The notes under the pieces are model-generated. The model made no database searches. It saw nothing but the letters and a program-made list of their open reading frames with translations, and had not been told where the DNA came from. Below, in pieces: positions 1 through 64,000 of a stretch of DNA of 64,000 bases. Made by a program: the position numbers and the translations under genes. Position 1 is the first letter of the stretch. Every line of letters starts with the position of its first letter. Source of the stretch: Paraspadella gotoi (taxonomy: Eukaryota > Animalia > Chaetognatha); the NCBI GenBank assembly GCA_051294375.1, contig CM119265.1:103263-167262 (forward strand). Direction: 5' to 3'.

Positions 1-23
1 GACGAGAGCCTGAAAAAACGTGA

Positions 24-66
24 GGGAAACGCCAAAGGGGGACGACGTCGGTGAACGCCGTCCCCC
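24..66 (+). promoter_or_regulatory. -1 ribosomal frameshift signal (G_GGA_AAC plus hairpin)
   Basis: Slippery heptamer at 24-30 in the gag frame, 6-nt spacer, then GGGGGACGACGT/ACGCCGTCCCCC stem. Pol is in the -1 frame. Confidence 0.85.
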
Positions 67-3000
67 TCGCTTCAACTCAATCACCGTCGACAAATAACCT
101 CTTATACATTCGCGACGCCGGCGATCGGACTAAGTGGTTGGTCGACGGCGGGGCTCTACTATCGATCGTCCCGCCTACAAAGGAGCAACGTCAAGCCGGC
201 CCAGATCCAAAGATCCGCCTTCAAGCCGCCAACGGCTCACCGATTGAGTGTTATGGGACAGTCGACAAAGTGGTTCAACTCGGCAATAGAAAGTTTAATT
301 ATGAATTCATCGTCGCCAATGTCAAACAATTCATACTAGGCGCGGATTTCCTTGCTGAGAACTTTCTAGCACCTAACCACAGGGATGGACTACTACTTGA
401 TCTGCGTGATTACTCAACAATCGCCGCTTCAGTGGCGTCAGAAACTCCAGCGCACATCAACCTCGTCGACCGACAGGGCGAGCGATATTATAAACTCCTC
501 GACTCTTTCCCATCACTAGCCACGCCAACTTTCGAGGTGAAAGATCCTAAGCATGGAGTTACACACTCCATTCCCACTGAAGGCAGACCATGCCAATCAA
601 GGGCACGCCGCTTAGATCCAGAAAAGCTGGCCGTCGCTAAACGTGAGCTGGAGAAAATGGTTTCTCTGGGCATAGCTCGACGTGGAAAATCTGAATGGTC
701 ATCTCCGCTTCATGTTGTGGAAAAACCCGACGGCGGATGGCGTTGTTGTGGGGATTACAGGCGCCTAAATTCCCAAACAATAGATGACAAATATCCAGTT
801 AAACTTCTAACGGATTTTAACTCACAGCTTGAGGGAAAGACGATTTTTTCTAAAATCGATCTTTTGAAGGGCTATCATCAGATACCCGTCAATCCTGATG
901 ACGTTAAAAAAACGGCGGTTATCACCCCGTTTGGATTGTATGTCTTTCCACGTTGCCCATTCGGTCTTAAGAATGCCGGGCAAGATTTTCAGAGGCTCAT
1001 GGATGAGATCTTGGGGGAAATCCCCCATACCTTTGTTTATCTTGACGACATTCTTGTTGCCTCATCGTCACCAGAGGAGCATTACCAAGACCTCGAGCGC
1101 GTGTTTAAAGCACTGGATGCCAACGGCTTAGTAGTAAATACTAAGAAATGTCTGCTAGGACAGGACTCGCTGGAGTTCCTAGGCTTCTTGGTGGACAAAA
1201 ATGGCGTACGACCTCTGCCTAAACGCGTACAGACTCTCCAAGAAACGACAAGGCCAACTACCATCAAGGAACTCCAGCGGTTCCTAGGTATGGTAAATTA
1301 CTACAGGCGCTTTATTCCGAAAGTCGCCCATAGATGCGCACCACTTTACGACGCATTAAGTGGCAAACCGAAAACCCTCGAATGGACAAGCGACTGCGAT
1401 CGAGCATTCGAAGCCATCAAGGAAGGATTAGTGCAAGCGGCTCTCCTCCACCACCCCAGAACCGGCGCTCAATTGTGCATCACGACCGACGCGTCGGACC
1501 AGGCAGTGGGCGCGGTCCTGGAGCAGCGTGGGCCAAAAGGCTGGGAACCGCTCGCCTTTTTTTCGACCAAACTGGCCAAAAACCAGAGGTTATGGCCTCC
1601 CTTCGACAAGGAGCTTTTCGGCGCCTTCAAGGCCGTCCGGCATTTCCGGCATTGGGTGGAAGGACGTTCTTTTACGTTGTACACCGATCACCAGAGTTTG
1701 GTCTCAGCCATAAGGAAAAAGTCGGAACCACAAACAGTGCGTCAATCCTATCAATTGTCTGTCATTGCAGAATTTACGACGGATGTTAGGTACTTAAAGG
1801 GCAAGGCGAACGTGGTCGCCGACGCCCTATCTCGACCTAACGCCCTGCCGACGACGACGACTCCGCCGACGAATCCCTCCACGTCAGCGACGCAGGCCTC
1901 AACGCCAACGTCAACAGATTCACCGGCGACTCGGCCCAAAAACTCAATGACGACCTCATCATCAAGCGAGACCGCTCATACGCCTTCATCATCGACAGCG
2001 ACGACCGATTCCGCGCTCATAGCGTCAACATCCTCAACAGAAAACGAAAAAGAGAGAGGAATAAAGGAGAATCGACTCGAGGACGCCCACGCGTTAATAT
2101 CGTCGCTAACAAACTTCGAAATAAACTTCGAACAAATGGCAAGGGAGCAGGTGCTTGATCCAGATTACCAGAGCATAGCAGAGAATGCAAGATCAGGACT
2201 CTCATTTAGAAAAATTAAAGTGGGGGAACAAGATCTACTCGTTGACGTTTCAAACGGGCCGGCGCGCCCATTCGTCCCGGCGTCATGGCGCCGGCGGATT
2301 TTCGACATTATACATGGACTCGGCCATCCGGGAGTAGAGGCCACACGCAAAGCAGTCGCGGCCAAATTCGTCTGGACGTCGATGCGCCAAGACGTGACGA
2401 AGTGGGCGCGGGACTGCTTGGACTGCCAGCGAGCCAAAGTTACCAGACACGTTGTCCCGGAAATCGGCGAGTTTAAGGTGCCACCACAACGATTTCAACA
2501 TCTCAACTTAGATCTCGTTAAAATGCCAACGTCTAACGGCTTCTCTCACTTACTAACAATAGTCGACAGGTTTTCGAGATGGCCGTCAGCCATCCCGATC
2601 AAGGACACCCTCACTACAACCATTCTAGATGCTTTGAGTCACAATTGGATTAGTGTGTTCGGCACGCCCACAATAATCACCACCGATAGAGGAACTCAAT
2701 TTAATTCCGCGCTGTGGCGTCAATTGACCAAAAGCTGGGGAATTAAACATCAGATGACGACCTCCTACCACCCCCAGGCGAACGGCCTAGTAGAACGATT
2801 TCATAGGAGGTTGAAGGAGTCCCTCATCGCCCTCGCTCGAGAAAACCGTGAAAAATGGTTTTGGAAGCTTCCAATGACAATGCTCGCAATTCGTACGACT
2901 ATCAAAGAGGACATCGGCGCCTCCGCGGCCGATTTGGTCTTCGGCGAGGGCATCAGAGTCCCCGGCGCCCTTCTCGACGACCCTCAAAACGACAACGCCG

Positions 3001-3818
3001 AGCTACAACGTCAACGACGGAACCAATTGGCGAAACTGCGCGTCGAGGTGGCGAGGCTACAACCAACTCCAACATCAGCTCATCACCATCCGACAATCCA
3101 TCTTCCAAGCAACCTCCAGACGGCACAATACGTTTTCGTCAAACGCGCAGGCGTCAATCCACCCTTGGTCCCGCCCTACGAGGGCCCCTACAAGGTAATT
3201 AACAGAAATGGAATTAATTTTACAATTGAAATTCCCAGCGTCGGACGAGAGACGATCAACATCGCGCGCGTGAAGCCAGCTTGGGTCAGCGACGAGACGC
3301 TGGAGGTCGATCAAGCACACCCCCAGCGACGCCCACCAGGCCGTCGACCCGGTCCCAGGACAACAACGCCGGCGCCAACATCACGAATCACGCGTTCAAA
3401 TCATCAACGCGCCTCTTCACCCGATCCGACGCCTCCGTCTCCTCCTCCTCCTCCTCCTCCTCCTCCTCCTCCTTCACCGACCGTCTCCCCGACCTCACCC
3501 AAGCAACCCCATCGTCTCCCCGACCCCCACCAGTCGCCTTTACGTTTTTTCTCAAATCCTTCCCATTCTCCCGAGCCTCCACGCAAGACGAGTCCAGCGT
3601 CAAAAAGGCAAAAAGGGGAAGACAACAACAACAACAACGAAAAGAGAGAGAATGAGCCAATCATCGAACGTTTCTCTAAGCCAAGCTCAGACGACTTCTC
3701 ACGAAGATGTCCAGGCATGACAAGACCTACATATTCCGTTGTACTGAAGGAGATGCTCAGAAGACAAAACGATCACAACAACAACAACCAAAAAAGCAAA
3801 AGTCCCCCTGTCACCTAA
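51..3818 (+). CDS. pol: Pol polyprotein (protease-RT-RNase H-integrase), probably expressed by -1 frameshift from gag
   Basis: LVDGGA (PR), YLDD (RT), TDAS/ADALSR (RNase H), HGLGH..CLDC (IN zinc finger), TTDRG/NGLVERFH (IN core), YEGPYKV (GPY/F). Confidence 0.97.
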   Translation: MNAVPLASTQSPSTNNLLYIRDAGDRTKWLVDGGALLSIVPPTKEQRQAGPDPKIRLQAANGSPIECYGTVDKVVQLGNRKFNYEFIVANVKQFILGADFLAENFLAPNHRDGLLLDLRDYSTIAASVASETPAHINLVDRQGERYYKLLDSFPSLATPTFEVKDPKHGVTHSIPTEGRPCQSRARRLDPEKLAVAKRELEKMVSLGIARRGKSEWSSPLHVVEKPDGGWRCCGDYRRLNSQTIDDKYPVKLLTDFNSQLEGKTIFSKIDLLKGYHQIPVNPDDVKKTAVITPFGLYVFPRCPFGLKNAGQDFQRLMDEILGEIPHTFVYLDDILVASSSPEEHYQDLERVFKALDANGLVVNTKKCLLGQDSLEFLGFLVDKNGVRPLPKRVQTLQETTRPTTIKELQRFLGMVNYYRRFIPKVAHRCAPLYDALSGKPKTLEWTSDCDRAFEAIKEGLVQAALLHHPRTGAQLCITTDASDQAVGAVLEQRGPKGWEPLAFFSTKLAKNQRLWPPFDKELFGAFKAVRHFRHWVEGRSFTLYTDHQSLVSAIRKKSEPQTVRQSYQLSVIAEFTTDVRYLKGKANVVADALSRPNALPTTTTPPTNPSTSATQASTPTSTDSPATRPKNSMTTSSSSETAHTPSSSTATTDSALIASTSSTENEKERGIKENRLEDAHALISSLTNFEINFEQMAREQVLDPDYQSIAENARSGLSFRKIKVGEQDLLVDVSNGPARPFVPASWRRRIFDIIHGLGHPGVEATRKAVAAKFVWTSMRQDVTKWARDCLDCQRAKVTRHVVPEIGEFKVPPQRFQHLNLDLVKMPTSNGFSHLLTIVDRFSRWPSAIPIKDTLTTTILDALSHNWISVFGTPTIITTDRGTQFNSALWRQLTKSWGIKHQMTTSYHPQANGLVERFHRRLKESLIALARENREKWFWKLPMTMLAIRTTIKEDIGASAADLVFGEGIRVPGALLDDPQNDNAELQRQRRNQLAKLRVEVARLQPTPTSAHHHPTIHLPSNLQTAQYVFVKRAGVNPPLVPPYEGPYKVINRNGINFTIEIPSVGRETINIARVKPAWVSDETLEVDQAHPQRRPPGRRPGPRTTTPAPTSRITRSNHQRASSPDPTPPSPPPPPPPPPPPSPTVSPTSPKQPHRLPDPHQSPLRFFSNPSHSPEPPRKTSPASKRQKGEDNNNNNEKRENEPIIERFSKPSSDDFSRRCPGMTRPTYSVVLKEMLRRQNDHNNNNQKSKSPPVT

Positions 3819-4158
3819 CTGACAATCGGAGCGTCTTCTCCCAGGCATCCTCGGTCTTCCTCCCGCCAGCTCCGATTGCCAGTGGCCTAATTGTACAGTA
3901 TTTTACAAATTTGATTATTATTTTACAAAGTTTAGTAATTTTTGGTTGTTATGGAATTTTTTGAAATGTTATGGAATGACGATGGAGTAATTTTTGCACG
4001 TTTAAACCGGTCTTTAGACCAAATTTTTATTTTTCGTTGTATATAGAAGTATATATATTTTAGAGAAATTAATTATCAACACACAAGTCAAACACACAGA
4101 TGGACGACAACTAATTTTGTTATAATATGTTATTACCCATTATTACAACAGGGGGGCA

Positions 4159-4853
4159 TGCGGCCACCTGAGACAATTAATTTCGGTGTATTCCAGAGTT
4201 GGATTCGAACCATCGAACTCAGGCCTGGGACGCTGGGACTATGAGCAATCAGCACCAGGAAGGCCATGAGTCTTAGATGATTAAAACAGATCTTATAGGC
4301 TTTAATCCTTCTTCTTCGAAGCCAGCCTTTTGTTTTCAACTCAGATCAACTGATTTGTTCACACAATCAAATAGATGGCTTCCCGCCTTTTCAAACTGAT
4401 TAGTTTCAACTGATTGTTACCTGAAAATCGATTTCTCTGATTATAGTCACTCTGGTTTTTAATCTCGAAATAAAACGTTGATCTTTCACAATAAAAAACA
4501 TTGTTTTTAATTCTTCTCTCAATGTAAATAATACATTCCTTCAAAGAGAAAAACCTTATTGTTGAAACTCTCTCAATTTGAATTCGAATTCTTAATAATC
4601 AAGTAAATATCTTCTACAATGATTTAAACTTCGATTTAAAATATTCAAACTGATTTAAAACTCATTCGACTTGATTTTAACCTCGATATTAAAATATCAA
4701 ATTGAAAACATCAACTCTGTTATAATGTGAGCACGCTTTCCCTGCCCGGCAGGTTCATCTTCACTTGAAGTGGATTCACTTACTCGATTAGTTACGCGTC
4801 ACGTTCCTGTCACGCCACGAGTCACGCTGTGGTGACCTCGATGTCGAGCCACA
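4159..4853 (+). repeat. 3' LTR of E1 (~695 bp)
   Basis: Starts TGCGGC right after the PPT and ends GCCACA before (TTAGGG)n. Confidence 0.9.
4191..4261 (-). other. tRNA-like (Pol III B-box) cassette in E1 LTR, antisense to the element
   Basis: Minus strand reads TTCCTGG...GATGGTTCGAATCCAACTCTGGAA, with B-box GGTTCGAATCC and partly paired ends. Confidence 0.7.
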
Positions 4854-5447
4854 TGGGTTAGGGTTAGGGTTAGGTTAGGGTTTAAGGGTTAGGGTTAGGG
4901 GTTAGGGTTAGGGGTTAGGGTGTAGGGTTAGGGTTAGGTTAGGGTTGGGTTAGGGTTAGGGTTAGGGTTAGGGTTAGGGTTAGAGGGTTAGGGTTGGTTA
5001 GGGTTAGGGTTAGGGTGTTAGGGTTAGTAGGGTTAGGGTTAGGGTTAGGGTTTAGGCGTTTAGGGTTAGGGGTTAGGTTTAAGGGTTAGGGGGTTAGGGG
5101 TTTAGGGTTAGGGTTAGGGTTAGGGTTAGGTAGTTAGGGTTAGGGTTAGGGAGGGTTAGGTTAGGGTTAGGTTAGGGTTAGGGTTAGGGTTAGGGTTGTG
5201 TGGTGGGTTAGGGGGTTAGGGGTTAGGGTTAGGGTTAGGGTTAGGGTTAGGTGTTAGCGGGTTAGGGTTAGGGTTAGGTTAGGGTTAGGTGGTTAGGGTT
5301 AGGGTTAGGGTAGGGTTAGGGTTAGGGTTAGGGTTGGGGTTTAGGTTAGGGGTTAGGGTTAGGGTTAGGGGGTTAGGTTTAGGGTTAGGGTTAGGGGTTA
5401 GGGTTAGGGTTAGGGGTTAGGGTTAGTGGTTAGGGTTAGGGTTAGGG

Positions 5448-5484
<37 letters not shown>

Positions 5485-5523
5485 GTTAGGGTTTTAGGGT
5501 TAGGGTTTAGGTTAGGTTAGGGT
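4854..5523 (+). repeat. (TTAGGG)n telomeric-repeat tract
   Basis: Tandem TTAGGG with scattered indels. Confidence 0.98.
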
Positions 5524-5957
5524 TGTAGCCTGTGACCGCAGAAAAATAATAATAATATTTTTATAATAACCGAATCATTAATTATTAATTAATTAATCCT
5601 TCCATGATTAATATCCTTCTATTACGAGTCCTCTGATAATTAATTACGAGTTATAAATAACACTTACCTGATCGGATTCGAACCAGCGACCTAGCGGCCC
5701 ATAGTCCGATGCTCTAACCACTTGGCCGCCGAGACACTTTAGTTACAAATGATTGGAACTTCCTCATATTGAATTCTGAAAGCTCCCGACGTCCCTTTTG
5801 TTTTATATATCGAATCCAAGGGCCTTCGTTATCGTTATTAATCCAAAATGGCCGCTGCTGATAAGCAGATGATATTTGTAACCTTTACAGAGACGATTCG
5901 GTTATAAGTCACTTCTCTTTGATCCTGTAACTCTGCCAGGGTATTCGCCTATCTACA
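5524..5957 (+). repeat. 5' LTR of E2
   Basis: Direct repeat of 11630-12064 with TG..CA ends. Confidence 0.95.
5667..5737 (-). other. tRNA-like A/B-box cassette in E2 LTR (second copy 11770-11841)
   Basis: Minus strand: GTGTCTCGGCGGCCAAGTGGTTAGAGCATCGGACTATGGGCCGCTAGGTCGCTGGTTCGAATCCGATCAGG. A-box-like GGCCAAGTGG and B-box GGTTCGAATCC; the acceptor stem is poorly paired. Confidence 0.8.
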
Positions 5958-6263
5958 ACTGGTGAGCCCAACTCGAACTGATTTACCAACCTCTGATACT
6001 TATCTCAAAACCTACCGCCAATCTTACTGAGCTTAGAACTTATTCATCGAAAATGAGTCTTTTCCTCTAAACTGAATAAACAACTAATAAATCAAACAAA
6101 ACAGAAGAAAACGGAGGACAACGTTTCCAAGAGGTCGTTCAGCGGATCCAATCGTCTCCTCAGGTAGGCAAGACGTGAAGCATTAGGCTAATTTTCCTTG
6201 CCTATCTCTCACCACGACCTTCCTCCCTTTTCTTTCCCCCTTTCCAACGCCATCAACTGACGA

Positions 6264-7355
6264 ATGAGTGGCCCTGCCGGCAGCACCCGCGCACGAATCG
6301 CGCAAACCAGCAGCACCAGTGAAGCTTCTCCAGGTGCTCCAGACAACGCCGCCTTCCTTCAACCTCCACCTTCCGCTGCAATTGGATTTGGGCGTGGCAG
6401 ACGCTCTCCAAACGCGATCGCCGCCCAAGGCAACTTCAATTTCCAACCGACGTCTCCATTCGCCGCCCACATGGCCGCCGCCGCGGCGCCAGATCCTCAG
6501 GAGGAACTCGTCCGCGCCCTCGCCGCCACGCTCTCTGCATCCCTTCAGGGCATGTCTCTTAAGAAGCCTAAGTTACCCGACTTCGACGCTGATANNNNNN
6601 NNNNGTGGATACAGCGAGTGGAGGCGGCCTACACTCGCGCAGGCACCTCCACAGCCAAGGAAAAGTNNNNNNNNNNAGAGGACAAGTTCGCTGTCGACTT
6701 TAACCCTCGCGTTAACGCCTTTCTCTTCGGAACGGCCGACGACACCCAATGGACAGCTTTCCTCGATTATCTCAGGACCGAATATGGCCGAACTCGGTCA
6801 CAACAAGCGTCATCTCTGATCGATGGCACTCGTCGAGAGGGCCGTCGACCTTCTCAGCTCCTCGCCATCATGAAGGAGAAGGCGGGGAAAGTCACAGTGG
6901 ATGATATCCTCAAAGAATTACTCCTACGCGAATTACCAACGGAAATTCAGCGAAATCTAGCGGAGAGAGTCGAATCCGTCGACGCCGAGACGGCCGCCAA
7001 ATTCGCCGACGCTTACTTCGACAAAGAAGGAAAACCTCTACACTCAGCGTCATCAACGGCGGCCTTCGCCGTCAATCAGCCGATTCCCAATCTGATGCAG
7101 GACGACACCTTTTCAAATGACGACATAAACGCCGTCAATCGACCTCGTCAAGGTCAAGCAGCCCGTCGACCTTTCAGCGCAGCACGTCGACCAGCGAATC
7201 CCGATAAGGCAACTATGGATCATAGCCATCAGTCGAAAACGTCAAAAGTAGAAATATGCTACTATCATCGAAAATTCGGCGACTNNNNNNNNNNATGTGA
7301 GTCAGGCTGTTTCCGTTATCGCACGGAAAACTCGAAGGCCGGCGNNNNNNNNNNA
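6264..7355 (+). CDS. gag: Gag with CHCC zinc knuckle (true stop masked by N; the ORF track over-extends it to 7604)
   Basis: KLPDFD..WIQRVEA N-terminal motif and CYYHRKFGD....CESGC; homologous to E5 Gag, which ends GGRK*. Confidence 0.88.
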
Positions 7356-10300
7356 ACGCCATCCCGACCGGCCCAATTATCAACAGCAACGATGCCCTTC
7401 TCTTCGTTCACGATAGCGACAACAAACTCACGTGGCTCGTCGACGGCGGCGCCACAGTGTCCATCGTTCCCCCAACTAAACAAGAGAGAGAACGAGGAGA
7501 AAATAAAACTAAACTCAGGGCAGCTAACGGATCTCCCATTCCCTGTTTTGGTTACAAGGACGTCCAGGTCCGTCTCGGAGGTAGAAAATTTCCCTTCACT
7601 GTAACCATTGCAGAAGTCACTCAACCCATATTAGGCTCAGACTTTTTGGCTGAGCACTATCTCGCCCCAAACCATCGAGATGGTTTTTTAATAGACCTGC
7701 AGAATTTTAGTACAATCCCAGCATCAAAAGCAAATAAGCAACAACCTTTAAGGGTAAATTTCGTCGATCAGGCCGACGACCCCTATTATAAGTTATTAGA
7801 TACTTACCATGACCTTTGCACTCCATCGTTTCAACCAAAGGACCCTAAACATGGAGTGAGACATTACATTCCCACAACAGGTCGTCCAGTTCAATCGCGA
7901 GCCCGTCGATTGGCCCCCGACAAACTCGAGGTGGCCAAGAAGGAGCTGGACAAACTCTGCGAACTAGGCATCGCCCGCCGCGCCAAAAGCGAGTGGGCGT
8001 CGCCCTTGCTCGTCGTCAACAAACCGGACGGCGGTTACCGCGTTTGTGGAGACTTTCGTCGCCTAAACAACGCCACCCTCGACGACAAATACCCGGTGAA
8101 AACCCTTAACGACTTCAACGCCAACTTGTGTGGAAAGAAAGTCTTCAGTAAAATCGATTTACTGAAGGGTTATCACCAGATACCCGTGGCCGACGAGGAC
8201 ATACAAAAAACCGGCGTCATAACTCCATTCGGCTTATATGTCTTCCCTAGGACCCCGTTCGGTCTAAAGAACGCGGGTCAAGACTTTCAACGCTTGATGG
8301 ATGAAATTCTTGATGGACTTCCCTACGTCTTTGTGTATATCGATGATATACTGGTCGCCTCCAAAAATCACGAGGAACACGAGAAACACCTCCGAGAAGT
8401 TTTCGATACACTTCACCAAAACGGTCTTGTTGTCAACAGACAGAAATGTGTATTGGGAAAGCCTTCTCTAGAATTTTTAGGCTACCACGTAGACGCCAAC
8501 GGGATCTCCCCACTACCAGGGAGAGTGGCCGCCATTAACGAGACCACACCACCCACAACCATAAAGGAACTCCAAAGGTTCCTGGGGATGATCAATTATT
8601 ATAGGCGATTCATCCCCAGGTCAGCTCATCACCTCTATCCACTCTTCGAGGCATTGAAAACAAAAACGAGGCCACGCACCTTAGACTGGACGCCAGCTTG
8701 CCAACAAGCTTTTGATTCCATTAAGCAAGCACTCGCTAAGGCCACAATGCTTTGCCATCCTCGACCAGGTGCATCCCTAGNNNNNNNNNNTGACGCCTCA
8801 AACACGGCAATAGGCGCCGTATTGGAACAAAGAGGCCCTCGTGGCTGGGAGCCACTGGCATTTTTTTCTGCCAAACTACAAAAGAGTCAACAATTATGGC
8901 CTCCATTCGATCGGGAATTGCTCGCAGCATGGCGAGCCATTCGCCACTTCAGAACCATGATCGAAGGCCAAAAATTCACACTCTACACAGACCACAAATC
9001 GTTGATTCCAGCATTAGCAAAAAAATCAGAGCCACACACGGCACGACAAACTTACCAGCTCGCCGGCATAGCGGAATTTACCACCGATATACAATACCTC
9101 GCCGGCAAAGCAAACGTCGTCGCCGATTCTCTGTCTCGACCAAATGCTGAGAAAAATCCGAATTCGAATCCTTCTCCTCCTACTCCTTCTTCTCCCCCTC
9201 CCTCACCCACTCCCCAACCTCTCTTCCCTTCTTTCTCTGCCCCCATTCCCTCTCCTCCCCCAATTGTAGCTACAATCGACAAAGAAGTCCCCACGGAGAA
9301 GCAACAAGATCTCGATCAACTCGTTTACTCAATCCTTCAACACGGTTTGGACATGCAAAAGATGGCCGTCGACCAGCCACTGGACGCCGAGTTTCGACGC
9401 ATCACAACCGACGCTAGTTCCAGCCTCCGTTTCCGCCGGATCCCGATTGGAGAAACGTCTATCACAGTCGACATTAGTAATGGCCCTCCTCGCCCCTTCG
9501 TGCCATTCTCCTGGCGCCGTCGAGTCTTCGAGACGGTCCACAATCTGGGCCATCCCGGCGTCGAGAGGACACGACAAACAATCAGCGAAAAATTCGTGTG
9601 GCCCTCAATGCGCGCCGATGTCTCTCGGTGGGCTCGAGAGTGCCACGAATGTCAGCGGTCCAAAGTAACGCGAAATACGGTGCGGAAATAGGCACCTTCG
9701 AAACTCCCTGAGCGCCGCTTCAATATATTCAACGTCGACATCGTGACCCTTCCATCATCGAACGGATTTAACTATGTCTTAACGGCCGTCGACAGATTCA
9801 CTCGATGGCCGACAGCTATCCCCATGAAGGATATCGCAGCCAAGACCGTCGCCGACGCTCTCGTCCATGGCTGGATATCCTCCTTCGGAGTGCCGGCCAC
9901 TATTACAACAGATCGAGGTTCCCAATTCCTCTCCTCGACATGGCGACAATTATTATCTTCATGGGGAATTTCTCACAACTTAACTACAGCCTACCATCCC
10001 CAATCGAACGGCCTCGTAGAGAGGTTCCACCGGCGCTTAAAAGAAGCCCTCATCGCTCTCGGCGCTGATTCACGAGGAGATTGGTATTGGCGACTTCCCT
10101 GCGCCCTTCTCGCCATCAGGACGACGCTCAAACCTGACGTCGGCGCCTCTCCAGCCGAACTCGTATATGGAGAAGCAATAGCGGTCCCTGGGGACCTAAT
10201 TTCGACTCAGACCGGAAGTGACGCCCGCGAGAGAGAGCAACGACGCCGCACACTCGCCAATTTGCGCCTCGAGGTCTCACGTCTACAACCAGCTCCAACG

Positions 10301-11147
10301 ACAACTCACCGTCAACCTCGCGTGCATCTTCCCGACGCCTTACGACACGCCTCACACGTATACGTCCGTAGAGGAGGCGTGGCCACGTCTTTATCGGCGC
10401 CATATCTCGGACCATATCGCGTAATCTCTCGTGATCAATTAACTTTTAAAATCGAAATCCCTGGACGACAAAACGAAAACGTTTCAATCTCTCGCCTAAA
10501 ACCCGCTTTCGAGGCGGACGACGACGCCGGAAATGACGCCAGCGGCGGCGCTAGGTCCACCACGCACGCCGTCGCCTCCTCCCTCGGCCCCCGCCGGGCC
10601 GGCGTCCCGGAATCAGAAGCCGTTTCCCCGCTCCATCAACTCGGAATCTTCGATCAAGTACAACCGAGAACTCGTCCGCTCCGTCCTCCTCCTCTCTCCT
10701 CCTCCTCCTCCTCCCTCCCCCCCCCTCACCTGCCCCCCTACCTCCCCGCGACCACATCGACCTTCACTTCCCTCCCTGGTCGATTTCCCCCTTAAAACAT
10801 AAAAAAAACAAACCGGGCCAAAAAGTAAACAAAGATGTAAACAAACCGGTAAGATCAAGAGGAGGAAGAGCAATTCGACGCCAACGAAGACGATTCCAGC
10901 CCAACGCAACACGAGGCATCCCCGGAGACGATCCCCTTCCTGCCCTCGTCCCCTCGTCGCTTCCCTCGCCTCATATATTCTCGAAACCAACGCCCGATAA
11001 TTTTTTCATATCGAGCGGCGAGGCGTCAAAATTCGCCTTCAAACGTCAACTCCACTCGCCGTCCTACTCGGCGGTCGCTAGCACCATGTGCTCCAGCAAA
11101 TCAACAACGAGGAGACCTCTCCATCACAAACTCGAACGGGTCAGTGA
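7331..11147 (+). CDS. pol: Pol polyprotein of E2, broken by a few indels (~9690, ~10550-11100)
   Basis: ORFs 7457-9691 (YIDD, RNase H, HHCC) and 9743-10795 (DDE, YLGPYRV). The C-terminal TGQ* is conserved with E5. Confidence 0.88.
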
Positions 11148-11629
11148 ATCACAAAACTCATTCTTTTTCAGTTAACCTGGTGAAATTCAATCCTGTCCTG
11201 AATTCACCCTTTCAAAAAAACTTTAAATTACATTTTTTCAATTTCAATTGTCGTTTATTTCACTCGAATACATCTCGAAATATTTTTAATTATGTTAAAC
11301 GTTAATAAGAACGTTACATAATCATCGAATTAATCGCGAATCTCGTTACTCATCCTAATCATCAAAAATTTAAAACCCGTTACTCGTTCCAAATTATTTA
11401 TCACCGTTTACTATCGTTTATCATCTTTAAAAAACGATTCGATTTTTACTTAGCTTGAACGACAGTGTATACTACTATTCTAACGTGTTTTACCTATACC
11501 TTTTAAAAAACTTAGATCACAATCGTAGTAAATACTTTTATTAACAAACGATCTTTATTCACAAAGGCTTTTTAAACTTTAGATAAAATCGCGCCAAAAT
11601 ATTTTTTCCCCTAATTTTATCTGGGGGCG

Positions 11630-12064
11630 TGTAGCCTTTGACCTGGCAGAAAAAATAATAATAATTATTTTTATAATAACCGAATCAATTATTTAATTAA
11701 TTAATCTCCATGTAATATCCTTCTATTACGAGTCTCTGATAATTAATTACGAGTTATAAATAACACTTACCTGATCGGATTCGAACCAGCGACCTAGCGG
11801 CCCATAAGTCCGATGCTCTAACCACTTGGCCGCCGAGACACTTTAGTTACAAATGATTGGAACTTCCTCATATGAATTCTGGAGAAAGCTCCCGACGTCC
11901 CTTTTGTTTTATATATCGAATCCAAGGGCCTTCGTTATCGTTATTAATCCAAAATGGCCGCTGCTGATAAGCAGATGATATTGTTAACCTTTACAGAGAC
12001 GATTCGGTTATAAGTCACTTCTCTTTGATCCTGTAACTCTGCCAGGGGTATTCGCCTATCTACA
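11630..12064 (+). repeat. 3' LTR of E2
   Basis: Follows the PPT and repeats 5524-5957. Confidence 0.95.
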
Positions 12065-12195
12065 GGCTTAGGGTTAGGGTTAGGTTAGGGTTAGGGTTTA
12101 GTGTAGGGTAAGGTTTTGGGGTTAGGGTAAGGGTTAGGGTTAGGGTTAGGTTAGGGTTAGGTTAGGGTTAGGGTTAGGGTTAGGGTTAGGTTAGG
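12065..12195 (+). repeat. (TTAGGG)n tract
   Basis: Tandem TTAGGG. Confidence 0.95.
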
Positions 12196-12319
12196 TGTCG
12201 TGGCTCCGAGTGGCGTTGATACGCCACGAGATGACGCGACAACTGAGGGTGGCTACACTAAGCAAGCGTAGCGAGTGACTCCTTCGTGACGAGTTAGCGT
12301 AGCGCAGGGAAAGTGACAC
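12196..12319 (-). mobile_element. U5 end of a further subfamily-A LTR in reverse orientation, cut by a scaffold gap
   Basis: Reverse complement contains TTCCCTGC and ends ..GCCACGACA against the telomeric repeats, like the U5 ends of E1, E3, E4 and E6. Confidence 0.6.
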
Positions 12320-12419: not shown

Positions 12420-13428
12420 AAAAGGTATATAAAACACTAAGTGTTCAACTAAGTAAAAATCGAATCGTTTTTTAAAGATGATAAACGATAGTAAACGGTG
12501 ATAAATAATTTGGACGAGTAACGGGTTTTAAAATTTTTGATGATTAGGATGAGTAACGAGATTCGCGATTAATTCGATGATTATAGTAACGTTCTTATTA
12601 ACGTTTAACATATTAAAAATATTTCGAGATGTATCGAGTGAAATAAACGACAATTGAAATTGAAAAAAATAAATTTAAAGTTTTTGAAAGGGTGAATTCA
12701 GGACAGGATTGAATTTCACCAGGTTAACGAAAAAGAATGAGTTTGNNNNNNNNNNGACCCGTTCGAGTTTGTGATGGAGAGGTCTCCTCGTTGTTGATTT
12801 GCTGGAGCACATGTGCTAGCACCGCCGAGTAGGAACGGCGAGTGGAGTTGACGTTTGAAGGCGAATTTTGACGCCTCGCCGCTCGATATGAAAAATTATC
12901 GGGCGTTGGTTTCGAGAATATATGAGGGCGAGGGGAGCGACGAGGGGACGAGGCAGGAAGGGGATCGTCTCCGGGGATGCCTCGTGCTTGCGTTGGGCTG
13001 GAATCGTCTTCGTTGGCGTCGAATTGCTCTTCCTCCTCTTGATCTTCCGGTTTGTTTACATCTTTGTTTACTTTTTGGCCCGGTTTGTTTATTTTATGTT
13101 TTAAAGGGGGAAAATCGACCAGGGAAGGGAAGTGAAGGGTCGATGTTGGTCGGGGGGAGGTAGGGGGAGGGGNNNNNNNNNNNNNNNNNNNNGGAGGAGG
13201 AGGAGGAGGAGGAGGAGGAGCGGACGAGTTCTCGGTTGTACTTGATCGAAGATTCCGAGTTGATGGAGCGGGGAAACGGCTTCTGATTCCGGGACGCCGG
13301 CCCGGCGGGGGCGGCGAGGGAGGAGGCGACGGCGTGCGTGGTGGACTAGCGCCGCCGCTGGCGTCATTTCCGGCGTCGTCGTCCGCCTCGAAAGCGGGTT
13401 TTAGGCGAGAGATTGAAACGTTTTCGTT
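12420..13428 (-). mobile_element. Inverted near-identical copy of the E2 3' region (integrase tail plus 3' UTR) between two N gaps
   Basis: Reverse complement matches ~10470-11500; probably a redundant contig or a second E2 copy. Confidence 0.85.
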
Positions 13429-14844: not shown

Positions 14845-15385
14845 TGCGGTCCACTCGATCGAATCCATTTCATTTGGGAAATAAATTCATCATTTATAAA
14901 GCTTTAAATAGAAGACGAGATCTTTTGTTTTACAAAAGATATATCTAACTTCTCCAAGATGTCTCCACATATTAAACCTTTTGTTTGATGACTGTTTACC
15001 TTTGTTATTGATTTTAATTCTGTTCAGTTCGGTTTTGAATCTTGATTCAAATAGAATCTTTCATCAATTAAAAACTCGTTTTTATTATTCAACAAATGTA
15101 AAGCTACATTAAGAAAGTGCTGAAATAAAAACTAAATGAACTCGTTAATGTTTCTAACCAATCAATAAAATCTGCCAACCAATCAATTCATCTCTAATCG
15201 AATCTTAGTTATTTCTCAATTGGTTAAACAAATAAACAATCATCTTAATGTTAAACGAATCACCTTCCCTGCGACTTAATCACCTCCGCTAATCACCTTC
15301 GGTTCCAACGTCTTAGGACTGACTCATTTCAGTTGGTCAGTCAACTTCGTTCATTGCTGTGGCCTGTCTCTGTGAGCTAACCACA
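14845..15385 (+). repeat. 5' LTR of E3 (~540 bp, no tRNA-like cassette seen)
   Basis: Direct repeat of 20543-21081. Confidence 0.93.
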
Positions 15386-15572
15386 CTTGGTGAGCACCGA
15401 CAAAGGACGTTACCAACTTCAAACGGGAAAGTCGGCGACACCTAACCCTCCTCGAGGTAAGATTGGGTGAAGAGTGGGATTTTAGTGAGTTGCCCCCAAT
15501 CTTCTCACACTTTTCCCTTCTTTTTAAACTTTCCCTTCACGTGAATCGCTGGATCCGAATTCGACGCCGTCA

Positions 15573-21081: not shown

Positions 21082-21183
21082 GGGTTAGGTTAGGGTTAGG
21101 GTTAGGGTAGTTAGGGTAGGGGTTAAGGGTTAGGGGAGGGTTAGGCTTAGGGTTAGGGTTAGGGTTAGGGTGGTAGGTTAGGT

Positions 21184-21216
<33 letters not shown>

Positions 21217-58352: not shown

Positions 58353-60142
58353 ATGCATTCTAGTAACTTGTAGTACCTTTCTCCCTTTCGATCGACAAAA
58401 TTGACATGCGTTGACTGCTCCTTCGTCGTCGACGCCGCGATGGTCGAGTAATCGCGGAGGTCGAGGAGGAGGCCGTCTCGATGATTCGGTGCCAAGTAAT
58501 TCTCCGCCATAAAGTCAGCACCGAGGATGTGTGCTTCACATCGGCTACGATGAACTGATAGTCGAATTTTCGTTTACCTAGCTGTACTGTTTTTGTCGTC
58601 GTTGCCATAGCAATTGATGGGAGAACCATTTGCAGCCTGAAGTTTCATTAATGGTTCAGGGCCGTTTTGCTTTTGCTGAGGAGTGGGCGGGATGATCGAA
58701 AGCAAAGCTCCGCCGTCTACAAGCCACTTAATCTTATTCCCGGCGTCCCGAATATACAATAAATTGTTGGAGGCCGGTGAATAGTCTGTGCTCAGGGGAC
58801 GGCGTTCACCTGCGTCGGACCCCTTTGCCGTTTCCCTCTTTCTTCCTTTGAGTATCGTCGAATCTGGCGCAGCCTGGCTCGCAGGACCAGGCGTCCTCTC
58901 CAAACTTCACGTGTTTGGCGCAGAGAGTCATCAGCTTTGCTTTGCCCTTGTTTTTCGATGTTTGTTGTTGTCGTCGTCTATTGTTGTTGTTGTTCGCCTG
59001 TTTACGTGGACGCCGATCGATGCGCTGACGCCGTCCTCGCTATCGGAGTCAGAATCGATTTGATCATGGCGATCAACTGCATTGACGAAAGAAGATGTCT
59101 GGCGAATTTTCAGATTTCCGTCGACGTCGTAGTGCCTGTCCGCTAGCTGGCATAATTCCTTGGCAGTAAGCTCATCAGCTTTTTCCTCTAGCTGGCGCCG
59201 GACGTCGGTCGGTAGGTCGCGGAGAATCTTCTCCTTCCTTATGTCGTCGACACTAACATTTCGAGTCTTTTCCTCGAGTTGGGCCAACATTTTTGATGGC
59301 TTAGCACTATCGAGGCTGAGGGCATCGAGCATATTGGCGGCCTGTTGCCGCTTTGTGAGTCCGTATTCACTTCTGAGATAGCTTATGAATTGTTCCCAAG
59401 CTGATTCGGTAGGTTCTCCAAACAGATACTGATTTATTCTAGGGTCTACGTTGATACCTATTTTAGACTCTAGGTGCGCAAATTTATTCCTTGGGTTTGT
59501 TATTCCTGATCGAACATAGGCCGCTTCAACTCGCTTAATCCATACTTCGATGTTATTCTGATCGAAGTCCGGTAGTTCAGGTTCCGGTTTGATACACGCT
59601 CCAGCGCGCGGGTGGCGGCGGGCGAGGGCGGCGCGAAGCTCGTCGTTTTCGTCACGCAAATCCCTCCCTTCGTTGCCTGCACGCTGGTGGTCGGTCGGTC
59701 CACCTGTCGCCATCTCGGCGTCGTTCCTAGCGGCGTTGCTCGATGGAAAAGCGAAGGTCGGCTCGGCGTCGATAAACGCCGGTGAGATAGAGCGGGATCT
59801 TTGTCCTCTACCAAACCCGAAAGGCACTTGTAGGCGTATTTCCTCGTTTCGTCGGTCCTCCGCCTCAGCGTCGCGTTGGGCAGAGCGTAGGCGCGAGCGA
59901 AGGTCCGATCCGTTCATCGAGGTCCTCGTCGCCGTCGAATCGATGTTGAAAAGCGGGAGAAATGAAAAAGGGAAGTGTGAGAGGATTGGGCGGCAACTCA
60001 CTTAAATCCCCACTCTTCCACCCAATCTTACCTCAGAGAGGGTGACTTTCCGTTGTCTTCTCCCTTTCAATCGTTGGAAAATGTTCTGAGTCGTTCTCAC
60101 CATTTGTTCCGGGTTGTAGTTGAGCCACAGCGCGACGAAGAC
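58353..60142 (-). mobile_element. Near-identical duplicate of the E6 5' region (U5 end, PBS, gag, protease)
   Basis: Matches ~43617-45410 almost base for base. Confidence 0.9.
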
Positions 60143-61101
60143 CGGACATGAGTAGAGTCACAATACTAAGATAGAAGCTTCGATATGCATTGAAGTTTAT
60201 CACAGGGAATTTGTGGCGCGTAGTTCAATAGAGAAATATGTTTAGTATGAAGAGTAGTTTCAGATTATGTAGAATAAGTCTTCAGATTAATTAATAAGAC
60301 GTTTTTAATCGAGATTGAAATCTTTGGATTATCGCTAATTCAGAGTTCAGATCTTTGCACTACTCGAAATTTAAACTTTCTTCTTTGACGATCGAATTCA
60401 TTGAGATTAATTATTCATATCTTAGATAATTCGATGAATTGTTTTATCACATGTATTAATGTACTTGCTACATTATTGTGAGGCAATTAAAAACAAGTTC
60501 AAGCATGTTTTACCATGTATTTCATGCGTGAGTAAAAAACCGAACTAGATTTGAGAATTGAAACAGAGATAGTTCAACAGATGCCTTTTGATTTTTCCAA
60601 CAAATAACTGATATTCCCTCCTCAGATGGCTGAATCAATCAGTTAATTGTTCTGAATCAACCATTGTTTACTTCTGTATTGATTCTATAAAAATAGTTCG
60701 GTTTTACTCACGCATGAAAATACATGGTAAAACATGCTTGAACTTGTTTTTAATTGCCTCACAATAATGTAGCAAGTACATTAATACATGTGATAAAACA
60801 ATTCATCGAATTATCTAAAGATATGAATAATTAATCTCAATGAATTCGATCGTCAAAGAAAGAAAGTTTAAATTTCGAGTTAGTGCAAAGATCTGAACTC
60901 TGATTAGCGATAATCCAAAGATTTCAATCTCGATTAAAAACGTCTTAATAATTAAATCTGAAGACTTATTCTACATGAATCTGAACTACTCTTCATACTA
61001 AAACATATTTCTCTATTGAACTACGCGCCACAAATTCCCTGTGATAAACTTCAATGCATATCGAAGCTTCTATCTTAGTATTGTGACTCTACTCATGTCC
61101 G
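60143..61101. repeat. ~405-bp inverted repeat of E9 LTR sequence (arms 60143-60547 and 60694-61101)
   Basis: For example, CGGACATGAGTAGAGTCAC at 60143 is the reverse complement of GTGACTCTACTCATGTCCG at 61083-61101. Confidence 0.9.
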
Positions 61102-61299
61102 CGTGGCCACATGGTGAAACCGACGGAGAACAATACCAACGTCAACGTGGAGAAGTCAGCGGATTTTTACTCTCTCTGAGGTAAGATCGGGTGAGAGATT
61201 GAGAGATTTAAGTGAGTCGCCGCCCGATCGTCTCACACTTTTTCTCTCCTCCCCACCTTCCCCACTTCCCCACGCATGCCCTGACGGAGTCTACAACAG

Positions 61300-62387
61300 A
61301 TGAGTGACCCGGATATACGCGCGCGTCTCCGCTCCGCCCAAAGAGAAGCAGAAGCGGAAGATCATCGAAACGAAGTCGGCCGACTCCAAGCTCCACTAGG
61401 ATTCGGAAGAGGTCAACGCTCGCGCTCTATTTCGCCGGCGTATAGCGACGCCGCACCGTCCTTCAGCTTCCGAATGAACGGCGCCGCGGGACGAGAAAAT
61501 ACTGCCATGGCGTCCGACCGACCGACCGACGGCGCGAGAAACTTATACGACGAAAACGATGAATTACGCGCCGCCTTGGCCGCGGCGACACGCGCGCTGG
61601 AACGTGCTTCAAATCGTAAACCCGAGCTACCGGATTTCGATCCCAGTAACATTGAAATTTGGATTAAAAGGATTGAATCAGCGTATACGAGGGCCGGCGT
61701 CACCAACCCTCGTAATAAGTTCGCACACCTAGAATCGAAAATTGGCATTAACGTAGATCCGACTATAAATCAGTATTTATTCGGCGACGCAGGAGACATG
61801 GAATCAGTTCATTGAGTACCTTAGAAAAGAGTACGGTCTCACACGTCGACAAACAAGCTGCCAATATTTTAGACGTCGACGTCGACGCCACGAAGCCATC
61901 CAAGATGCTGGCTCAACTCGAAGAAAAAACTCGAAGTCTTACTCTCGACGACATAAGAAAGGAGAAGATCTTACGCGAACTCCCCAACGAAATACGGCGC
62001 CAACTAGAGGAAAAGGCGGATGATATGACGGCGCATCAGCTCTGCCAACTGGCGGATAGACACTATGACGTCGACGGCAATCTTAAGATTCGCCAAACGA
62101 CGTCGCTCGTCAGTAACGTCGACCGTGATCAACGAGATCACATCGGATCGGATACAGACGACGAGGAGCTCGTCAACGCCGTCGACAGCCGCCCACGCAA
62201 ACCAGGGAATAATAAACGCCGCCCTCAACAAGCCTCGAAGCCCAAAAACAAGCCAAAGCTCTCGACGTTGTGCGCGAAGCACATCAAGTTCGGAAAGGAC
62301 GCTTGGTCATGTGACCCAGGCTGTGACCGCTACGAGGAGACCCAGAAGAAGAGAGAGGGAAACGGGAGGGGGGGACGACGTCGGNNN
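61300..62387 (+). CDS. gag: Gag with CHCC knuckle (frameshift at ~61795)
   Basis: ORFs 61300-61815 and 61812-62474; CAKHIKFGKDAWSCDPGC. Confidence 0.85.
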
Positions 62388-62473
62388 NNNNNNNCCCCCA
62401 AGCGTCAACGAGTTCACCAGCGCCCAGCAGCCTCTTATTCATCAGAGACGCCGGGGACAACACCAAGTGGCTA

Positions 62474-63890
62474 GTGGACGGCGGCGCGCTGCTCTCTATA
62501 GTGCCTCCAACATCTCGACAACGCGAACAAGGCGCAGATCCGACCATCAAACTGCAAGCAGCCAACGGTTCGCCAATTGAGTGTTTTGGGACAATAGAGA
62601 AAACGGTTCAATTGGGAAATCGCAAGTTCACCTATAAATTCGTCGTTGCAAACGTGAAACAAAACATTTTAGGTGCAGACTTTCTCGCAGAAAATTTTCT
62701 AGCGCCGAATCATCGAGACGGTCTACTAATCGATCTGAGGGACTACTCGACCATTGCGGCGTCAATTGCAACCGAAACAAGCGCACACGTCAATTTCGTC
62801 GATCGAAAAGGCGAAAAATTTTACAAGCTGCTTGATAGTTTTCCATCATTATCAACACCCACTTTCGAACTCAAGTCACCAAAGCATGGAGTGACACACT
62901 CCATACCTACTGAAGGCCGCCCATGTCAGGCAAGAGCCAGGCGTCTCGATCCAGAGAAGCTAGCAGTAGCGAAGCGTGAATTAGAAAAAATGGTGTCGAT
63001 GGGAATCGCCAAGCGAGGCAAGTCGGAATGGTCGTCGCCTCTCCATGTCGTCGCCAAGCCTGACGGCGGCTGGAGATGTTGCGGCGATTACAGGCGCCTA
63101 AATGCACAAACAGTCGAAGATCGGTACCCAGTCAAGTTGTTAACAGATTTCAACGCCCAATTGGAAGGAAAAACAATCTTTTCGAAGATTGATCTGTTAA
63201 AAGGGTACCACCAGATCCCGGTGGACCCAAAAGATGTACAAAAAACGGCTGTAATAACGCCATTTGGATTGTACGTTTTTCCACGCTGCCCTTTCGGACT
63301 CAAGAATGCTGGACAGGATTTCCAGCGCTTGATGGACGAAATCCTGGGGGATATCCCTCATACATTCGTGTACTTGGATGATATCCTCGTCGCTTCAACA
63401 TCTCCGGAAGAGCACATGCAAGATCTGGAACGAGTCTTCAGAGCACTCGATGAAAGCGGCCTTGTAGTAAATACTAAAAAGTGTTTACTCGGCCAGGACT
63501 CACTGGAGTTCCTTGGATTTTTAGTGGACAAAAACGGCGTCCGTCCACTACCACAACGAGTGCAAACCCTTCGAGAGACAACCAGGCCAACCTCGATCAA
63601 GGAGTTGCAACGGTTTCTTGGAATGATAAACTACTACCGTAGGTTCATTCCAAGAGTTGCACACCGTTGCGCTCCTCTCTACGAGGCTCTGAGCGGAAAG
63701 CCAAAATCGCTAGACTGGACAGAGGACTGCGAAAGGGCGTTTGAAGCAATCAAGGAGGGATTAATCTCAGCAGCTCTGTTACATCACCCTCGAACAGGAG
63801 CACAATTGTGTGTGACTACTGACGCTTCAGACCATGCAGTAGGCGCAGTTTTGGAGCAGCGGGGCCCAAAAGGTTGGGAACCGCTGGCTT
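62474..63890 (+). CDS. pol: Pol, partial (PR-RT-start of RNase H)
   Basis: VDGGALLS, YLDD, TDAS; the sequence flips to an inverted pol segment after ~63895. Confidence 0.9.
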
Positions 63891-64000
63891 CTCTCCCTCA
63901 ATCCAGTGTCGAAAGTGGGACCGCGCGGAAAGCTCCGTAAGTTCTCGATCAAAATGGTGGCCCCAGATTTTCTGGTTCTTTGCAGCTTTGGCCGAGAAAA

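What the first reader, a model, noticed from the sequence alone, without database searches (positions are those of the whole stretch)
1..64000. A family of Ty3/gypsy LTR retrotransposons that colonises (TTAGGG)n telomeric repeats
Seen in the sequence: at least nine different CsRn1-like elements plus a TRIM alternate with 0.13-2.3 kb TTAGGG tracts, and almost every readable LTR end abuts the repeat. No element appears nested inside another. Established: the well-known telomere-repeat specialists are non-LTR or Penelope-like (SART/TRAS, MoTeR, Zepp, GilM/GilT, Athena, HeT-A/TART), while yeast Ty5 targets silent chromatin rather than the repeat sequence. Inference: this is an integrase-based LTR lineage specialised for telomeric DNA, which builds mixed retroelement/telomere arrays and may add length to chromosome ends. 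I do not know of a described equivalent but cannot run a literature or database search.
Basis: partly seen in the sequence, partly recalled or inferred. Interest (0 to 1): 0.93.

Follow-up and report, generated by a model that had tools for sequence, protein, structure and literature searches.

The report
Gypsy retrotransposons inside telomere repeats
In an animal genome, about ten different LTR jumping-gene families sit directly inside TTAGGG telomere-type repeats, mostly at the same position of the repeat, which likely means their integrase is steered to telomeric DNA, a niche that the papers I searched describe only for other kinds of mobile element.

Summary
Confirmed. Nine gypsy-type elements of two lineages (about 69% RT identity), one further LTR end and a TRIM alternate with seven TTAGGG tracts (0.13-2.3 kb). 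Of 15 readable outer LTR ends, 14 abut the repeat and 9 show exactly GGGT, a 4-bp target duplication (TTA-GGGT-TAG), in both orientations; none is nested. For element E4, short-read contigs hold the left junction (3 of 4 runs) and the right junction (2 of 4), so this is not a long-read chimera. Gag CHCC, -1 frameshift, GPY/F and 4-bp duplication fit the CsRn1 clade, whose described members show no target preference. The phase follows a generic integrase rule; the crowding into repeats needs targeting or selection. The integrase ends in a disordered tail with a conserved terminal helix, a likely tether. Not shown: genome-wide exclusivity (no genome held; one LTR end and one contig are non-telomeric), terminal position, any role in telomere length. 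Parts of the window look misassembled. Ten paper searches found no integrase-based LTR element specific for telomeric repeats; Repbase could not be searched. The scan had not reported this on other DNA.

The parts
1..4853 (+). E1, lineage A element, 5' part off the window; pol frame 24-3818; 3' LTR about 4159-4853 ending CCACA, then repeat
4854..5523 (+). TTAGGG tract 1 (670 bp)
5524..12064 (+). E2, lineage B, both LTRs (5524-5957, 11630-12064; 3 substitutions, 12 indel events); flanks GGGT / GGCT; pol broken by a stop and a late frameshift
12065..12195 (+). TTAGGG tract 2 (131 bp)
12196..12319 (-). X, 3' end of an LTR of a further family in opposite orientation, cut by a scaffold gap
12420..13428 (-). 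Reversed piece 93% identical to the 3' part of E2, between two 100-N gaps; second copy or misplaced contig
13529..14842 (.). Non-telomeric AT-rich (27% GC) repeat DNA left of E3; high depth in two of four runs; subtelomeric repeat or misjoin
14843..21081 (+). E3, lineage A, complete; LTRs 14843-15385 and 20543-21081; open gag (to 16655) and pol (16583-20200) overlapping in -1 frame; left flank not telomeric, right flank GGGT
21082..22171 (+). TTAGGG tract 3 (1090 bp)
22172..22862 (+). TRIM: LTRs 22172-22451 and 22575-22862, PBS and PPT like lineage B, GGGT on both sides
22863..24997 (+). TTAGGG tract 4 (2135 bp)
24998..31770 (+). E4, lineage A, complete; LTRs 24998-25722 and 31076-31770; open gag and pol (26915-30847); GGGT on both sides, junctions seen in short-read contigs
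31771..34105 (+). TTAGGG tract 5 (2335 bp)
34106..40040 (-). E5, lineage B, opposite orientation; 3' LTR 34106-34517; lacks 5' LTR and PBS
40060..46162 (-). E6, lineage A, opposite orientation; 5' LTR 45372-46162, pol 40352-44242; lacks PPT and 3' LTR, joined directly to the E5 leader
46163..47313 (+). TTAGGG tract 6 (1151 bp)
47314..53864 (+). E7, lineage B, both LTRs (47314-47735, 53450-53864), frames broken by many indels; flanks AGGT / GGGT
53865..54011 (+). TTAGGG tract 7 (147 bp)
54012..58327 (+). E8, lineage A, 5' LTR 54012-54703 after GGGT, indel-rich, cut by a 25-N gap
58353..61101 (.). 98% duplicate of E6 43621-45410 followed by a fold-back of the E9 LTR (60143-61101, 91%); likely assembly artefact
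60640..64000 (+). E9, lineage A; LTR 3' part, PBS, gag, 5' half of pol; neither outer end readable
19601..20200 (+). Integrase C-terminal part of E3: GPY/F, SH3-like barrel, disordered Pro/Arg tail, terminal helix; candidate targeting module

Best explanation
These are CsRn1-like Ty3/gypsy LTR retrotransposons inserted into TTAGGG tracts at TTA-GGGT-TAG with a 4-bp duplication, and they are likely steered there by a tether, predicted to be the conserved helix at the end of the integrase tail binding a telomere-bound host protein. Shown: normal LTR anatomy, TG..CA ends, insertion in both orientations in one repeat phase by two lineages, no nesting, real junctions for E4. From established knowledge: a 4-bp integrase prefers T at -2 and A at +5, and GGGT is the only phase of the repeat that offers this, so the phase is generic integrase chemistry. 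Inferred: the regional choice (repeat tract rather than neighbouring elements or other DNA) comes from recruitment, as Ty5 uses Sir4 and Ty3 uses TFIIIB; telomerase likely keeps supplying new repeat, and each insertion splits a tract, which builds a mixed array that acts as a safe haven. Probability that targeting of some kind is real is about 0.75; the tether form of it about 0.5.
For: 14 of 15 outer ends in repeat, 9 of 14 exact GGGT. E4 junctions in independent short-read contigs: left in 3 of 4 runs, right (21 repeat letters shown) in 2 of 4; apart from the element's own 3' UTR, only one other branch is listed at the two LTR ends. Neutral model: P = 4e-5 that 8 successive insertions all miss earlier elements with today's 7.7 kb of tract. 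Two lineages 67-70% identical in RT-RNase H, plus a TRIM, use the same site. The integrase has no chromodomain or other folded DNA-binding domain after the barrel; it has a disordered tail (pLDDT mostly under 60) and one helix at residues 449-466 of the model. A related basic-Pro-helix motif ends the tail in 85 of 110 close relatives and 1 of 74 distant ones. A distant family with 4-bp duplications sits in unique DNA (5 of 6 copies with matching duplication), and 0 of 98 related loci carry TTAGGG runs. Described CsRn1 members have no target preference (PMC2582038, passages).
Against: No genome-wide flank census was possible. The left end of E3 is not telomeric, and one contig in run X3 (92 nt, 4 differences in 67, depth 225) puts 25 letters that fit neither repeat nor PPT before an E4-like LTR start. 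Ten loose-end rows and 11 piece rows, and 664 and 1056, were not shown. Contig depths are similar across families, so each may have only one or a few copies, and the contig junctions may be the window's own insertion. A strict TA-N4-TA preference alone would give no nesting with P = 0.49, and the neutral P rises to 0.05 if the tracts were once 50 kb. The tail motif is shared by marine relatives whose flanks are unknown, so it may have another job. No TRF-binding [FY]xLxP motif in the lineage A pol proteins. The 98 control loci are distant (mostly 36-49% identity) and mostly too short to show flanks.
Confidence: 0.5

Rival explanations
1. The integrase itself reads the repeat: a dyad TA-N4-TA core with longer base contacts across several units makes TTAGGG arrays the preferred target without any host tether.
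For: GGGT is the only one of six phases with a TA..TA dyad; it is used in both orientations; the central step is a rigid GG, not the flexible YR step typical of 4-bp integrases (PMC4422553, section 6), which hints at base reading; the tail carries basic PGRRPG motifs that could contact DNA.
Against: T at -2 and A at +5 are the generic preference of 4-bp integrases. An 8-bp motif is too common to confine insertions: 149 such sites in 55,644 non-tract positions of this window. No folded DNA-binding domain was found.
Confidence: 0.22
2. There is no true telomere targeting: the integrase has only a local TA-N4-TA bias, inserts genome-wide, and copies survive in repeat tracts because they are harmless there.
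For: TA-N4-TA bias alone explains the phase and the lack of nesting (P = 0.49). E3 has a non-telomeric left flank; one non-telomeric LTR-start contig in X3. Unchecked notes report TRIM-type LTRs with 4-bp duplications in introns of this genome. About 30 related contigs per deep run at one protease position show many more families than the window holds, and their flanks are unknown.
Against: At the E4 LTR ends the listed branches are repeat or the element's own interior in 3 of 4 runs, with junction depths near the interior depth; E3 contigs run across the LTR ends without a listed unique flank. Ten insertions in 7.7 kb of tract is an extreme density.
Confidence: 0.2
3. The array is an assembly artefact: error-rich long reads or scaffolding joined separate elements through TTAGGG.
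For: Gaps, indel-rich LTRs and tracts (5'/3' LTR pairs differ mostly by indels), a fold-back, two duplicated pieces and an LTR-less E6/E5 join.
Against: Joining through TTAGGG still needs each element to be flanked by TTAGGG. Both E4 junctions exist in short-read contigs of two studies; E3 coding DNA matches contigs with 0 differences over kilobases. An artefact could change order and number, not the junctions.
Confidence: 0.05
4. Telomerase added repeats to broken element ends, or recombination copied repeats beside the elements, without integration into the repeat.
For: The E3 left end and the E6/E5 join show that rearrangements or misjoins occur.
Against: Ends are exact TG..CA on both sides with a matching 4-bp duplication and an uninterrupted G-strand direction, whatever the element's orientation; healing would give ragged ends on one side only.
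Confidence: 0.03

Closest known systems
CsRn1 clade of Ty3/gypsy elements (CsRn1, PwRn1, AgCR1-14; PMC2582038, passages read)
   Same: Gag CHCC knuckle, -1 overlap of gag and pol, PR-RT-RH-IN order, GPY/F, no chromodomain or env, 4-bp duplication, TGGTGA-type PBS.
   Different: Described members show no preferred target; here nearly all ends lie in one phase of TTAGGG. Elements are longer (6.2-6.8 kb) with a 130-240 aa integrase tail and tRNA-like boxes in the LTR.
SART/TRAS, MoTeR, FoTeR, Tx1-1_ACar, Zepp, Gil and Athena telomeric retroelements (PMC10088271, PMC4700185, PMC12857005, PMC12477314; passages read)
   Same: Mixed arrays of element and telomeric repeat; fixed position within the repeat.
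   Different: Those are non-LTR or Penelope-like and use target-primed reverse transcription in a fixed orientation; these carry LTRs and a DDE integrase and insert in both orientations.
Ty5 of Saccharomyces (PMC4700185, passages read) and Ty3 (10.1101/2021.07.27.453949, passages read)
   Same: LTR elements whose integrase is tethered to a host protein through its C-terminal part; the model for the mechanism proposed here.
   Different: Ty5 is copia-type and lands in silent chromatin near telomeres, not in the repeat; Ty3 targets Pol III genes through a chromodomain that is absent here.
Telomere-inserting endogenous nimaviruses of shrimp (PMC10871703, passages read); TATE of trypanosomatids (recalled, no call)
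   Same: Insertion into the telomeric repeat by an integrase-type enzyme.
   Different: Tyrosine recombinases, not DDE retroviral-type integrases; giant DNA viruses or DIRS-like elements.
Retand of Silene latifolia (PMC12477314, passages read)
   Same: Ty3/gypsy family concentrated near chromosome ends.
   Different: Subtelomeric by cytology in a plant; not described as inserted in the telomeric repeat.

Membership tests
Ty3/gypsy LTR retrotransposons | Paired LTRs with TG..CA ends, PBS and PPT | tested here: met
   E2, E3, E4, E7 and the TRIM have both LTRs; PBS and PPT read
Ty3/gypsy LTR retrotransposons | pol order PR-RT-RNase H-IN, nearest solved relative Ty3 | tested here: met
   Pfam; best PDB sequence hit Ty3 Gag-Pol, E 8e-109; fold hits PFV and Ty3 integrase
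CsRn1 clade | Gag CHCC knuckle (C-x2-H-x9-C-x3-C) | tested here: met
   Found in E2, E3, E4, E5, E6, E9 (6 of 9; E1 gag is off the window, E7 and E8 are frameshifted)
CsRn1 clade | 4-bp target site duplication | tested here: met
   GGGT/GGGT at E4 and the TRIM, GGGT/GGCT at E2; in a 6-bp repeat the length is known only modulo 6
CsRn1 clade | tRNA-Trp primer binding site | tested here: inconclusive
   All 8 readable PBS start TGGTGA and then differ at two or more places from the PBS of relative L020; host tRNAs are not available
CsRn1 clade | GPY/F motif, no chromodomain, no env; gag-pol fused, in frame or -1 | tested here: met
CsRn1 clade | Grouping with named CsRn1, Kabuki or PwRn1 in an RT tree | not tested
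   No named reference sequence came from any call; the tree holds only unnamed relatives and one tapeworm and one jellyfish protein
CsRn1 clade | No preferred target sequence (as described, not a defining trait) | tested here: not met
   against PMC2582038
Telomere-repeat-specific elements (SART/TRAS type) | Fixed insertion position within the repeat | tested here: met
Telomere-repeat-specific elements (SART/TRAS type) | Nearly all genomic copies in the repeat | not testable with these tools
   No genome held; contig evidence for one family only
Telomere-repeat-specific elements (SART/TRAS type) | Non-LTR structure with endonuclease and TPRT | tested here: not met
   LTRs and DDE integrase
Helenus / TRIMp3 (for the TRIM) | Non-coding TRIM under 1 kb, tRNA-like sequence in the LTR, 4-bp duplication | tested here: inconclusive
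   Size, PBS, PPT and duplication fit; a sense A/B-box hit in 1 of 2 error-rich LTR copies at a shuffle rate of 5%; ARAGORN and Rfam found nothing relevant

The most novel reading that the evidence does not exclude
A whole marine clade of gypsy elements has turned the retroviral-type integrase into a telomere-homing enzyme through a short helix that docks on the telomere-binding proteins, and dozens of families now build the chromosome ends of this animal as mixed retrotransposon-TTAGGG arrays: the first integrase-based LTR telomere specialist.
Probability: 0.35. Interest if true: 0.9.

Novelty: new variant of a known kind. Interest (0 to 1): 0.76.

Why it matters
All telomere-repeat specialists in the papers I read use target-primed reverse transcription or a tyrosine recombinase. 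A retroviral-type DDE integrase that homes to TTAGGG, the repeat shared by most animals, would add a new solution to the question of how integrases choose safe sites, with a short candidate motif that can be tested directly. It would also show how an animal that keeps TTAGGG tolerates chromosome ends that are 88% retrotransposon, with internal repeat tracts that may favour breakage or healing.

Tried and rejected
Whole genome: none held, so no flank census. RNA: no RNA holder listed; this says nothing on expression. Close relatives with flanks: none in viral contigs or genome contigs; the 4 closest metagenome loci (55-58% identity) are short and lack LTR ends. Junction patterns: 1 and 0 matches in viral contigs, 2 in bacterial genomes; L081 has no element; the two bacterial loci were checked only for repeat runs. 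Cluster look-up of 10 relatives gave no host name except a jellyfish protein and one likely contaminant record. Atlas search of gag gave only generic gag clusters. ARAGORN and Rfam found no tRNA or ribozyme; a twister-like motif in the TRIM is my recall only and unconfirmed. TRF-binding [FY]xLxP motif absent from lineage A pol, present twice in E5 in low-complexity or spacer sequence: rejected as a tether. Nesting of E6 in E5 rejected: the E5 5' LTR does not follow E6. Telomere elongation in the Drosophila sense rejected on mechanism. Copy numbers could not be derived from contig depth. Earlier notes held no look-alike of the TRIM or of E3 pol and nothing near this window.
Full report
What is in the window. 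The + strand holds 847 TTAGGG and 8 CCCTAA. The repeats form seven tracts of 131 to 2335 bp, 7,659 bp in all, 51-80% perfect units, all in one direction. Between them lie nine gag-pol elements (E1-E9), the 3' end of a tenth LTR (X) and a 691-bp TRIM. E2, E3, E4, E7 and the TRIM have both LTRs. E3 and E4 have open gag and pol frames overlapping by 73 nt in the -1 frame. E5, E6 and X lie on the minus strand. Among 11 LTRs only two short nucleotide matches were found, so these are separate families. In RT-RNase H, lineage A (E1, E3, E4, E6, E9) is 90-94% identical within itself, lineage B (E2, E5) 88%, and the two are 67-70% identical. E7 and E8 were left out of the tree because their frames are broken; nucleotide matches place them in B and A. 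Each lineage has support 1.0, but their common ancestor holds 125 of 173 tips, mostly unnamed marine-metagenome proteins, so they are not one private clade.

Junctions. Fifteen outer LTR ends are readable; their positions are fixed by the inner PPT and PBS boundaries. Fourteen abut the repeat. The left end of E3 follows 1.3 kb of non-telomeric DNA. Nine of the 14 have exactly GGGT as the flanking four bases, one has GGCT in phase, and four need one indel or substitution. GGGT makes up 0.13 of tract 4-mers, so 9 of 14 has P = 1e-5; one junction per insertion, 6 of 10, gives 6e-4, or 4e-3 after allowing for six phases. The site is TTA-GGGT-TAG with a 4-bp duplication (modulo 6), used in both orientations. 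No element is nested. In a neutral sequential model, eight insertions all miss earlier elements with P = 4e-5 for today's tract length, 0.003 for 20 kb and 0.05 for 50 kb.

Is it real? The assembly is rough: LTR pairs differ mostly by indels, and there are three gaps, a reversed E2-like piece, a 98% duplicate of part of E6, a fold-back at 60143-61101 and an LTR-less join of E6 to E5. I therefore laid contigs of four public runs from two studies (4 of the 9 listed). E3 coding DNA matches contigs with 0 differences over kilobases, and listed contigs run from the 3' UTR into the LTR and from the LTR into the leader; no contig joining the non-telomeric flank to E3 was listed, but 664 loose-end rows and 1056 pieces were not shown. 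For E4, contigs carry the left junction in X1, X2 and X6 (eight flank letters compared, 15-16 more run off unseen; depths 131, 65, 23) and the right junction with 21 repeat letters in X1 and X6 (depth 14.6 against 10 for the leader in X6; in X1 the leader is 224 and the LTR 461-516). The other listed branch at the LTR start is the element's own 3' UTR. One X3 contig, 4 differences in 67 letters, has 25 upstream letters that by my reading fit neither repeat nor PPT. Ten loose-end rows and 11 pieces were not shown, human-like contigs are dropped silently, and depth is not copy number. So the junctions are real for E4; order and number of elements are not verified; exclusivity is untested because no genome is held.

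What the elements are. Gag has the CHCC knuckle in 6 of 9 elements, pol is PR-RT-RH-IN with GPY/F and no chromodomain or env, and all eight readable PBS begin TGGTGA. PMC2582038 (passages) gives CHCC, a tRNA-Trp PBS, 4-bp duplications and no preferred target for the CsRn1 clade. I had no named CsRn1 sequence for a tree, so membership rests on these features. As a control, a distant family in metagenome contigs shows matching 4-bp duplications in unique DNA in 5 of 6 copies, and 0 of 98 related loci carry a TTAGGG run, though most are too short to show flanks. An unchecked note (e1-10588039) calls the host very likely an arrow worm; the window has no host gene to test this.

How it likely works. 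Two things need explaining. The phase: PMC4422553 (abstract and section 6) reports that 4-bp integrases prefer T at -2 and A at +5 and avoid T at 0 and A at +3; GGGT is the only phase of six that meets all four, and the only one with a TA..TA dyad. The phase is therefore generic chemistry, except that the central step is GG rather than the usual flexible YR. The region: something must put ten insertions into 7.7 kb of repeat. A model of the E3 integrase (37-row alignment, mean pLDDT 67.5, pTM 0.39) shows the usual domains, closest to PFV and Ty3 integrase, then about 110 disordered residues and a single helix at 449-466. The tail carries PGRRPG and FSKP motifs in both lineages, and a basic-Pro-helix motif ends it in 85 of 110 close relatives against 1 of 74 distant ones (the pattern was my own, written after seeing examples). 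Ty5 and Ty3 are tethered to host proteins through the integrase C-terminus (PMC4700185 and 10.1101/2021.07.27.453949, passages). I infer a tether to a telomere-bound protein (0.5). Rivals: direct reading of the repeat (0.22); a local TA-N4-TA bias plus survival in harmless DNA (0.2), which explains the lack of nesting with P = 0.49 and fits the two non-telomeric ends and the unchecked note of TRIM-type LTRs in introns (e1-10599390); artefact (0.05); healing (0.03). The uniform G-strand direction, with non-telomeric DNA on the left of E3, is what a chromosome end pointing right would show, but this is not proof.

What is known. Ten searches of the open library listed no LTR element with a DDE integrase specific for telomeric repeats. 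Passages read in reviews and papers name only non-LTR and Penelope-like elements (PMC10088271, PMC4700185, PMC12857005, PMC12477314, 10.1101/2025.03.14.642909), Ty5 in silent chromatin, subtelomeric Retand, and nimaviruses that use tyrosine recombinases (PMC10871703). The chaetognath genome paper has no occurrence of 'telomer' or 'gypsy' in its main text (PMC12460157, term search; supplements not read and may bear on this), and an EST study found no retrotransposon beside telomeric repeats (PMC2678813, passages). PMC12471100, PMC10886601 and PMC11541908 were read as passages. TATE is recalled, not from a call. Repbase, GyDB and subscription journals were not searchable, so an entry there cannot be excluded. 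Earlier notes of this scan held no such finding.

Verdict. It works like a telomere-repeat specialist but is built as a CsRn1-like LTR element: a new variant of a known kind. Interest 0.76; 0.9 if a genome-wide census and long reads confirm a tethered, telomere-confined clade.

Noticed in passing
window LTRs of E1, E2, E5, E6, E7 (for example 5660-5735): Antisense tRNA-like A/B boxes in the 5' part of the LTR of protein-coding elements: 5 of 8 autonomous LTRs scored against shuffle rates of 1.5-6%, and the B-box column aligns in E4 and E8 too. Kojima 2024 (PMC10886601, passages) describes such boxes only in TRIMs. They could act as a barrier against telomeric silencing (guess).
   Followed up: partly
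window 15452-15515, 25788-25850, 45245-45308 (-), 54772-54840, 61172-61240: Leader hairpin that pairs with a splice-donor-like GGTAAG upstream of gag; 13 predicted pairs, 2 with changes on both sides in 5 sequences. Lineage B leaders show a similar donor and complement by eye.
   Followed up: partly
window 22172-22862: The TRIM may be of the tRNA-like, twister-bearing kind that earlier notes report elsewhere in this genome; no Rfam hit and no look-alike found.
   Followed up: partly
window 13529-14540: Part of a 4.7-kb contig at about nine times the depth of E3 in run X1, but not in X2 or X6; contigs lack a 659-bp piece of it. Candidate subtelomeric repeat at the inner edge of the array.
   Followed up: no
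window 16637 (protease motif of E3): 17-32 related contigs per run differ at this place, so the genome holds many more families of this lineage than the nine seen here.
   Followed up: no
window 16583-16655 and 26915-26987: 73-nt gag/pol overlap in -1 frame with a GGGAAAC heptamer followed by a G/C-rich stem-like stretch.
   Followed up: partly
window 23300-24500: Tract 4 has 47 C residues and variant units, against 0-5 in the other tracts: older repeat or a noisier read.
   Followed up: no
L100 5924-6056: A bacterial genome locus with an eight-unit TTAGGG run.
   Followed up: no
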